In this document: positions 9,964 through 10,572 of the stretch, in pieces
Numbering within the stretch: the stretch's first letter is position 1
Layout: each line of letters opens with the position of its first letter
Virus genome (UHGV): UHGV-0268470
DNA length: 19,712 bases
From: a virus
Strand: one strand, 5' to 3'
Translations under genes and position numbers: made by a program
Notes under the pieces: model-generated
Seen by the model: only the letters and a program-made list of their open reading frames with translations
Database searches by the model: none
What the model was told of the DNA's origin: nothing

Positions 9964-10043
9964 CATCTGGCTCGCCTGACGGGATGCGACGAATTTTCGC
10001 CGCCCCATAAAGTACGCCCACGACTCGTTCGCACTGGCCCGTG
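9964..10043. repeat. 80-bp perfect inverted repeat, copy 1 (partner 10423..10502)
   Basis: Reverse complement of 9964..10043 equals 10423..10502 base for base (checked by hand); identity stops on both sides. Confidence 0.9.
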
Positions 10044-10115
10044 AAGATGCTCGACACGCTGCAGAACACGCAGCTGCAGAGCGCCATTGTGAAGGCGATG
10101 TATGCCGCCACCATC
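10042..10115. repeat. 74-bp perfect inverted repeat, copy 1 (partner 10499..10572)
   Basis: Reverse complement of 10499..10572 equals 10042..10115 (checked by hand); encodes KMLDTLQNTQLQSAIVKAMYAATI. Overlaps the 80-bp repeat copies by 2 and 4 bp at the junctions. Confidence 0.9.
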
Positions 10116-10422
10116 GAGAGTGAGCTGGATACGCAGTCAGCGATGGATTTTATTCTTGGCGCGAACAGTAAGGAGCAGCGGGACAGGCTGACCGGCTGGA
10201 TTGGTGAAATTGCCGCGTATTACGCCGCAGCACCGGTCCGGCTGGGAGGCGCAAAAGTGCCTCACCTGATGCCGGGTGACTCACTGAACCTGCAGACGGC
10301 TCAGGACACGGATAACGGCTACTCCGTGTTTGAGCAGTCACTGTTGCGGTATATCGCTGCCGGGCTGGGTGTCTCGTATGAGCAGCTTTCCCGGAATTAC
10401 GCCCAGATGAGCTACTCCACGG

Positions 10423-10502
10423 CACGGGCCAGTGCGAACGAGTCGTGGGCGTACTTTATGGGGCGGCGAAAATTCGTCGCATCCCGTCAGGCGAGCCAGA
10501 TG
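10423..10502. repeat. 80-bp perfect inverted repeat, copy 2 (partner 9964..10043)
   Basis: Same as above; this copy encodes ...ARASANESWAYFMGRRKFVASRQASQM on the plus strand. Confidence 0.9.
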
Positions 10503-10572
10503 GTGGCGGCATACATCGCCTTCACAATGGCGCTCTGCAGCTGCGTGTTCTGCAGCGTGTCGAGCATCTTCA
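10499..10572. repeat. 74-bp perfect inverted repeat, copy 2 (partner 10042..10115)
   Basis: Same as above. Confidence 0.9.

What the first reader, a model, noticed from the sequence alone, without database searches (positions are those of the whole stretch)
9964..10572. Portal gene B disrupted by an inversion bounded by two pairs of perfect inverted duplications
In native gene order the portal reads N-term - Y - middle - X - C-term. Here the minus strand reads N-term - Y - rc(X) - rc(middle) - rc(Y) - X - C-term. The 80-bp X (9964..10043 vs 10423..10502) and 74-bp Y (10042..10115 vs 10499..10572) are each present twice in opposite orientation, with 2-4 bp microhomology at the junctions (tg; gatg). 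This fits a two-step template-switch (fold-back) event and truncates B after residue ~281. Every other morphogenetic gene is intact and near-identical to lambda, so either the prophage was inactivated very recently by loss of its portal, or this is an assembly artefact.
Basis: seen in the sequence. Interest (0 to 1): 0.7.

Follow-up and report, generated by a model that had tools for sequence, protein, structure and literature searches.

The report
Portal gene broken by duplication-flanked inversion
A lambda-like prophage otherwise identical, base for base, to the one in E. coli ST131 strains has its essential portal gene broken by a 461-bp flipped copy of its own sequence; this is a known kind of copying error and is either a very recent mutation or a sequencing artefact.

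Summary
There are two perfect inverted-repeat pairs: 80 nt (9964-10043 / 10423-10502) and 74 nt (10042-10115 / 10499-10572). The window equals E. coli JJ1886 (ST131) at all 19,712 bases if the native order a-X-M-Y-b is rewritten as a-X-rc(XMY)-Y-b. The two junctions overlap by TG and GATG. [quoted passage not shown]

It splits lambda-type portal gene B into three parts. Residues 1-282 plus WLA stay on the minus strand. Residues about 256-411 now lie on the plus strand. The remainder follows on the minus strand. All other genes are identical to the reference.

Neither junction occurs in 5,426 complete E. coli genomes (over 8,000 portal copies), 50,697 phages, or the viral, metagenome and GTDB contig collections. 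The chimeric proteins are absent from a 153-billion-gene index. There are no substitutions, so the event is very recent or artefactual. Sequence alone cannot decide; I favour a real in-cell event (0.55) over an artefact (0.28).

Two ordinary homologous-recombination steps would restore the native gene exactly. Known mechanism, ordinary consequence: low to moderate interest.

The parts
9964..10043 (-). X, native-orientation copy (80 bp; B nt 1154-1233, codons 385-411), contiguous with the B C-terminal part
10042..10043 (.). Junction 1: 2-nt microhomology TG shared by the end of X and the start of rc(Y)
10042..10115 (+). Y, inverted copy (74 bp; B codons 258-282 now in sense on the + strand)
10116..10422 (+). 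M, the only copy of the 307-bp middle segment (B codons 283-385), inverted
10423..10502 (+). X, inverted copy (80 bp)
10499..10502 (.). Junction 2: 4-nt microhomology GATG shared by the end of rc(X) and the start of Y
10499..10572 (-). Y, native-orientation copy (74 bp), contiguous with the B N-terminal part
10487..11344 (-). Truncated portal ORF: B residues 1-282 + WLA + stop (285 aa); matches PF05136 profile positions 2-243 of 354
10041..10592 (+). Accidental plus-strand ORF (183 aa): B residues about 256-411 followed by a 29-aa antisense tail; matches PF05136 profile positions 219-354
9595..10008 (-). Remaining C-terminal part of B (residues 397-533 from the first in-frame ATG), cut off from its start

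Best explanation
This is a single, very recent mutation in portal gene B of the lambda-like prophage integrated at icd in an ST131-type E. coli. [quoted passage not shown] What the sequence shows: the copied strand runs a-X up to native position L10144. It then continues on the opposite strand from L10525 back to L10065, priming on TG. It returns to the original strand at L10452, priming on GATG. X (80 bp) and Y (74 bp) are therefore each present twice in opposite orientation, and the 307-bp middle is present once, flipped. Inferred model: a leading-strand polymerase stalls while the helicase runs ahead. The free 3' end anneals to the exposed lagging-strand template about 380 nt ahead and extends in the Okazaki direction for 461 nt. 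It then re-anneals to its proper template 307 nt downstream of the stall. Consequence: B stops after residue 282 of 533. Lambda B is an essential head gene (established knowledge), so the prophage should not make infectious particles. The lesion is metastable. Recombination between either inverted pair, followed by deletion between the direct repeats this creates, restores the native gene exactly.
For: The exact geometry and the 100% identity of all three blocks to JJ1886 come, and the base-perfect reconstruction. The microhomologies of 2 and 4 nt have a joint chance probability of 0.0024 analytically and 0.0056 by simulation on this sequence. There are no pre-existing repeats at the breakpoints, which excludes homologous recombination as the origin. 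Zero substitutions in 19.7 kb point to a recent event. Literature precedent: E. coli lac amplicons have junctions with 2-15 bp microhomology, some with inverted segments, and an inverted switch needs a second inverted switch to give a viable chromosome (PMC2621351). The dupINVdup class is defined in PMC5338099. Microhomology-primed U-turn strand switches under replication stress are described in PMC4417113. The rearranged sequence contains every native k-mer plus only two new junctions with 2-4 bp overlap. A graph assembler therefore cannot create it without real molecules that carry those junctions (inference). The consensus is error-free over 19.7 kb. Exact two-step reversion was simulated.
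Against: It is a singleton. Neither junction occurs in 5,426 complete E. coli genomes, in 50,697 phages, or in the viral, metagenome and GTDB contig collections. The chimeric ORF products are absent from the 153-billion-gene index. There is therefore no independent confirmation that the structure exists in a cell. In-vitro polymerases (phi29 and PCR enzymes) make the same inverted, microhomology-primed junctions (PMC1855051). No reads are available. A 2-nt primer at junction 1 is at the low end for in-vivo switching.
Confidence: 0.55

Rival explanations
1. In-vitro or assembly artefact. A chimeric molecule formed by polymerase strand switching during amplification or library preparation (MDA, PCR-based long-read kits, end-repair fold-back) was used as the backbone of a long-read or hybrid assembly. 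Polishing then corrected bases but not structure. The organism's DNA is collinear.
For: MDA chimeras from an E. coli cell are more than 85% inverted sequences, primed on 2-21 nt of complementarity and mostly intramolecular (PMC1855051). Ligation-based nanopore libraries give 0.18-7.33% inverted-repeat chimeric reads (PMC13141652). The structure is seen nowhere else. The perfect identity of all arms fits an artefact equally well.
Against: Two complementary switches must sit on one molecule, and that molecule must win the consensus over many native reads. Typical artefacts are single fold-backs at read or contig ends, not an internal excursion that returns to the original strand. The flawless 19.7-kb consensus implies good coverage. 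A graph misjoin is impossible with 2-4 bp overlaps.
Confidence: 0.28
2. A real in-vivo inversion made by breakage and rejoining, not by replication. [quoted passage not shown] These are filled in, and the middle fragment is re-ligated in reverse by microhomology-assisted end joining.
For: [quoted passage not shown] The geometry matches.
Against: E. coli lacks Ku/LigD end joining, and its alternative end joining is rare and associated with resection (my own knowledge, not tested here). The model needs four coordinated nicks and unwinding of 74-80 bp. Blunt joining of filled-in ends does not predict microhomology at both junctions (about 0.006 by chance).
Confidence: 0.08
3. A programmed or recurrent invertible element (an intragenic inverton or reversible switch) that controls portal expression.
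For: The segment is now bracketed by 74-80 bp perfect inverted repeats that RecA could use. In-silico flipping followed by deletion restores B.
Against: The repeats do not exist in the native allele or in any of more than 8,000 related portal genes. A single flip of either pair does not restore an intact B (the intermediates give 285/274-aa fragments or a 532-aa out-of-frame fusion). No invertase gene lies in the window, going by the JJ1886 annotation.
Confidence: 0.03

Closest known systems
dupINVdup complex structural variants (human genomics; Brand 2015, Collins 2017), explained by the FoSTeS/MMBIR template-switch models
   Same: An inverted segment flanked on both sides by duplications in inverted orientation, short microhomology at both junctions, and no pre-existing repeats at the breakpoints.
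   Different: The scale is 461 bp rather than kb-Mb. It lies in a bacterial prophage, and it is a singleton with no read-level validation.
Stress-induced lac amplification junctions in E. coli (Slack et al. 2006, as summarised in PMC2621351) and the Salmonella tandem inversion duplication (Kugelberg et al. 2010, as cited in PMC4417113)
   Same: Enterobacterial events with 2-15 bp microhomology and inverted segments attributed to strand switching at forks.
   Different: Those are selected amplifications in which the central region is present three times (direct-inverted-direct). Here the middle M is present once, only inverted, so the second switch landed ahead of the first departure point rather than behind it. 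No snap-back quasi-palindrome lies at the junctions.
Drosophila inversions with inverted duplications at the breakpoints (staggered-break model, Ranz et al. 2007)
   Same: The same end-product topology.
   Different: The proposed mechanism is breakage plus NHEJ in a eukaryote, on a kb-Mb scale. E. coli lacks canonical NHEJ (my own knowledge).
phi29/MDA and library-preparation chimeras
   Same: Inverted junctions primed on 2-21 nt of complementarity, mostly intramolecular and short-range.
   Different: These are normally single junctions in a minority of reads. Here two complementary junctions sit in a consensus sequence.
Ordinary prophage decay by point or deletion lesions of the portal gene
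   Same: The same functional outcome. Independent lesions of the same gene were seen in passing: W393* in L003 and a 5' truncation in L002.
   Different: The lesion type is a copy-neutral-plus-148-bp inversion that can revert exactly, not a substitution or deletion.

Membership tests
dupINVdup / microhomology-mediated double template switch (FoSTeS-MMBIR type) | Inverted segment flanked on both sides by duplicated sequence in inverted orientation | tested here: met
   a-X-rc(XMY)-Y-b, with X 80 bp, Y 74 bp and M 307 bp
dupINVdup / microhomology-mediated double template switch (FoSTeS-MMBIR type) | Short microhomology (about 2-15 bp) at each novel junction, beyond chance | tested here: met
   TG and GATG; joint chance 0.0024-0.0056
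dupINVdup / microhomology-mediated double template switch (FoSTeS-MMBIR type) | No pre-existing long repeats at the breakpoints (origin not by homologous recombination) | tested here: met
   X and Y are single-copy in the native JJ1886 sequence; only chance-level short inverted repeats, none at a junction
dupINVdup / microhomology-mediated double template switch (FoSTeS-MMBIR type) | The structure exists in the organism's DNA and arose during replication or repair | not testable with these tools
   No reads or cultures available. Absent from all public collections searched
Tandem inversion duplication (TID) | Central region present three times (direct-inverted-direct) | tested here: not met
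   M is present once, inverted only; only X and Y are duplicated
Tandem inversion duplication (TID) | Junctions at short quasi-palindromes that allow snap-back | tested here: not met
   no inverted repeat at L10144/10525 or L10065/10452. The switch spans about 380 nt with 2-4 nt of pairing
Staggered-break inversion (Ranz model) | Inversion with inverted duplications of ancestrally unique breakpoint sequence | tested here: met
Staggered-break inversion (Ranz model) | Joining by non-homologous end joining of filled-in ends | not testable with these tools
   The host repair repertoire is not in the window. E. coli is known to lack Ku/LigD (my own knowledge)
Programmed invertible element (inverton, shufflon) | Inverted repeats conserved in related loci | tested here: not met
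   0 of more than 3,100 genomes (8,040 and 9,250 portal places) carry either junction
Programmed invertible element (inverton, shufflon) | Dedicated invertase or recombinase adjacent | tested here: not met
   the annotation of the identical JJ1886 sequence lists only structural, packaging, lysis, Q and nin-region genes in the window; RusA, about 8 kb away, is a Holliday-junction resolvase
Programmed invertible element (inverton, shufflon) | Flipping toggles between two functional states | tested here: not met
   neither single flip restores an intact B; restoration needs a flip plus a deletion
Lambda-family portal protein (Pfam PF05136) | Contiguous match to the whole Phage_portal_2 profile in one ORF | tested here: not met
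   native B matches profile positions 2-354 (324 bits). Here the match is split: 2-243 on the minus strand and 219-354 on the plus strand
Amplification or library chimera | Inverted junction primed on 2-21 nt of complementarity, intramolecular and short-range | tested here: met
Amplification or library chimera | Supported by only a minority of reads or a single molecule | not testable with these tools
   No read data

The most novel reading that the evidence does not exclude
The rearrangement is real and clonal, making it a natural, zero-divergence example in a clinical E. coli lineage of a double template switch (dupINVdup), a class characterised mainly in human and eukaryotic genomes and in selected laboratory amplifications. 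Because it is bracketed by 74-80 bp perfect repeats, it would also be a self-reverting knock-out. RecA-mediated inversion followed by direct-repeat deletion restores the portal gene exactly, so a small fraction of cells could regain a producible prophage.
Probability: 0.5. Interest if true: 0.4.

Novelty: new member of a known kind. Interest (0 to 1): 0.25.

Why it matters
If real, this is a clean, fully resolved natural example of a microhomology-mediated double strand switch in a bacterial chromosome. Both the parental and the derived sequence are known to the base, which helps calibrate how often such events occur outside selection experiments. It would also show a prophage-disabling lesion that, unlike deletions or nonsense mutations, can revert precisely. 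If it is an artefact, it is a useful warning that polished assemblies can carry small internal inversion-duplications that base-level quality metrics do not reveal. In either case it does not change what is known about lambda portals or about the biology of ST131.

Tried and rejected
1. I looked for the source or a second occurrence. Junction 30-mers were searched in genome contigs, metagenome contigs and viral contigs, with no hits. The 2-kb and 80-nt junction queries against 5,426 complete E. coli genomes and 50,697 phages gave no full-length place.

2. Exact-product look-ups of the 285-, 183- and 181-aa chimeric ORFs found nothing on record.

3. The 137-aa C-terminal ORF is on 14 contigs, which looked promising. 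All of them have the native order. L003 has a W393* nonsense mutation and L002 has a different 5' truncation. The others are contigs that happen to begin at that codon, a selection effect of looking up an exact product.

4. Strain B36 scored best with three pieces. The cause is an unrelated 39-bp in-frame insertion in tail gene V, and its portal gene is intact.

5. I looked for predisposing features in the native DNA. Short inverted repeats were at chance level and none sat at a junction. The single Chi site is 6 kb away and at chance frequency.

6. The programmed-inverton reading was rejected because the repeats are absent in relatives, there is no invertase, and single flips are non-restoring.

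7. A de Bruijn-graph misassembly was rejected because the 2-4 bp overlaps cannot form graph edges.

8. I did not run the large protein homology searches, structure prediction or Rfam, because the gene's identity was already unambiguous.

Full report
**Observation.** One is 80 nt (9964-10043 versus 10423-10502) and the other is 74 nt (10042-10115 versus 10499-10572). The raw sequence shows them directly. Perfect repeats of this length cannot be a chance occurrence.

**What the window is.** All the large ORFs are on the minus strand, in lambda late-operon order. A 2-kb query around the finding hits lambda-family portal (B), W and C/Nu3 genes in 97 phage records and 3,365 of 5,426 complete E. coli genomes. 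No record covers 80% or more of the query in one place. The best genomes (JJ1886, JJ1887, MNCRE44, an O25b:H4 strain and other ST131-type strains) are 100% identical over the 77% they cover. They span 148 bp less than the query.

A direct blastn of the whole window against JJ1886 gives three blocks, each 100.000% identical with no gaps:
- w1-10043 = L102-10144
- w10042-10502 = reverse complement of L10065-10525
- w10499-19712 = L10452-19665

Rebuilding the window in silico from JJ1886 with only these two junctions reproduces all 19,712 bases. Apart from this one event, the window does not differ from the ST131 reference at any base.

**Anatomy.** Call the native plus-strand order a-X-M-Y-b, with X = 80 bp, M = 307 bp and Y = 74 bp. 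The window reads a-X-rc(X-M-Y)-Y-b. X and Y are each present twice in opposite orientation, and M is present once, flipped.

Junction 1 shares TG (10042-10043) and junction 2 shares GATG (10499-10502). For random breakpoints, the chance of at least 2 nt at one junction and at least 4 nt at the other is 0.0024 analytically. Simulation of random events of this geometry on the native sequence gives 0.0056.

In portal-gene terms, Y is codons 258-282, M is 283-385 and X is 385-411 of 533.

**Consequence for the gene.** The gene is split three ways:
- The minus-strand ORF 10487-11344 encodes B residues 1-282 followed by WLA and a stop. It matches Pfam PF05136 profile positions 2-243.
- The inverted block creates an accidental plus-strand ORF, 10041-10592. 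It encodes B residues about 256-411 plus a 29-residue antisense tail and matches profile positions 219-354.
- The rest of B follows X on the minus strand, cut off from its start.

Native B matches the profile end to end. Lambda B is an essential head gene (established knowledge), so the prophage should be unable to make infectious particles.

**Context.** Every other gene in the window is base-identical to a JJ1886 gene annotated as intact. These are H, T, G, V, U, Z, FII, FI, E, D, C, W, A, Nu1, the lysis genes, Q and the nin region. Lambda itself is 97.6% identical over 76% of the window.

In JJ1886 the element is a nearly complete prophage of about 48 kb at icd. It has int, xis, exo-bet-gam, a repressor, replication genes O and P, and tail genes through J. 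It carries cargo genes (an inverse autotransporter, iss and sitABCD). Only the side tail fibre is already a pseudogene.

**Uniqueness.** Neither junction exists in any collection I searched:
- The 30-mers spanning junctions 1 and 2 are absent from the GTDB species-representative contigs, JGI metagenome contigs and IMG/VR contigs.
- 80-nt queries centred on each junction find 8,040 and 9,250 portal-gene places in more than 3,100 complete E. coli genomes. None covers more than 53% of the query.
- The 285-aa and 183/181-aa products are not in the 153-billion-gene index.

The 137-aa C-terminal ORF is on 14 contigs, but all have the native order. One has an independent W393* mutation and one an unrelated 5' truncation. 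The rest simply begin at that codon.

**Mechanism.** The topology is the class called dupINVdup in human structural-variant work (PMC5338099). It is what the MMBIR/FoSTeS models predict when a 3' end switches to the opposite strand and then switches back. Hastings et al. note that an inverted switch needs a second inverted switch to give a viable chromosome. They also note that E. coli lac amplicon junctions have 2-15 bp microhomology, some with inverted segments (PMC2621351). Microhomology-primed strand U-turns rise under replication stress (PMC4417113).

Read along either strand, synthesis leaves the template at the end of one duplicated block. It re-primes about 380 nt ahead on the complementary strand and copies back 461 nt. 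It then re-primes on the original template 307 nt beyond the departure point.

My inferred scenario is a stalled leading strand with the helicase uncoupled. The 3' end is extended on the lagging-strand template in the Okazaki direction and then returns downstream of the block. This scenario is inference; only the product is observed.

The native DNA gives no special predisposition. Its short inverted repeats are at chance level and none is at a junction. The only Chi site is 6 kb away.

**Rivals.**

(a) An in-vitro or assembly artefact. phi29 amplification of E. coli DNA gives more than 85% inverted chimeras primed on 2-21 nt (PMC1855051), and nanopore ligation libraries give inverted-repeat chimeras (PMC13141652). 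Against this, two complementary junctions must sit on one molecule and that molecule must win the consensus. The 19.7-kb consensus is error-free. A graph assembler cannot create edges from 2-4 bp overlaps. The rearranged sequence contains every native k-mer plus just the two junctions, so real molecules carrying those junctions must have existed.

(b) Staggered nicks plus end joining, which gives the same topology (PMC1885836). This needs four coordinated nicks and an end-joining capacity that E. coli largely lacks (my own knowledge).

(c) A programmed invertible element. This is rejected because the repeats are absent from all relatives, there is no invertase, and single flips do not restore the gene.

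**Extra inference.** The lesion is bracketed by 74-80 bp perfect repeats, so it is metastable. Simulated recombination between X and X' (or between Y' and Y) turns the other pair into direct repeats. Deletion between those restores the 19,564-bp native sequence exactly, by either path. As single-stranded DNA the region folds into an 80-bp perfect stem (-208.8 kcal/mol, z = -16.6). The two stems cross each other, so only one can form at a time. The late transcript would carry the same stems (inference).

**Verdict.** The rearrangement belongs to a known mutational class and its consequence, prophage inactivation, is ordinary. Whether it is real cannot be decided without reads. I put 0.55 on a genuine in-cell double template switch, 0.28 on an artefact, and the rest on other routes. 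Interest is low to moderate.

Noticed in passing
L012 4537-5316 (E. coli B36, NZ_LR130545.1), corresponding to window 4337-5077: Strain B36 has a major tail protein V gene 39 bp (13 codons) longer than in JJ1886 and the window (780 versus 741 bp, distinct protein accession WP_129685219.1). This in-frame insertion is why B36 matched the window in three pieces.
   Followed up: partly
L003 370 (Logan SRR34730130 contig 170); equals B nt 1179, window about 10018: An independent lesion of the same portal gene in another sample: TGG to TGA, W393*, in an otherwise 99.9% identical, collinear prophage.
   Followed up: yes
L002 1-3414 (Logan SRR15102836 contig 20): A related element (about 95% identical) whose portal gene starts abruptly at B nt 823 (codon 275, inside Y) after unrelated AT-rich DNA. 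Upstream lie Nu1, an AlpA-like gene and a second set of capsid E/D genes. It may be a rearranged prophage or a satellite-like element. Its breakpoint lies within the same 74-bp block as the window's junction but is not the same junction.
   Followed up: partly
window 14942-15268 (-) and 15749-16042 (+): Cargo genes sit between the packaging and lysis modules. The identical JJ1886 sequence annotates them as a TonB-family protein and the serum-survival lipoprotein Iss (bor-like), the latter on the opposite strand to the phage late genes.
   Followed up: no
JJ1886 NC_022648.1 1266140-1271485 and 1296481-1302624 (outside the window): The reference copy of this prophage sits at icd. It carries a 4.3-kb inverse-autotransporter gene and an alpha/beta hydrolase between P and the nin region, and sitABCD beyond the tail genes. 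Its side tail fibre gene is already split into two pseudogene fragments.
   Followed up: partly
L001 10145-10152 and 10575-10582 (native sequence); window 10415-10422 and 10622-10629: The 8 bases immediately after the X breakpoint in the native order (CCGTGGAG) have a perfect reverse complement 50 nt beyond the far end of Y. This does not match the observed junction. About four such 8-mers are expected by chance in 700 bp, so I treated it as coincidence.
   Followed up: partly
window 3483-3917 and 3899-4321 (-): The overlapping tail-assembly ORFs G and T have the lambda arrangement associated with the programmed -1 frameshift. JJ1886 annotates them as separate G and T proteins.
   Followed up: no
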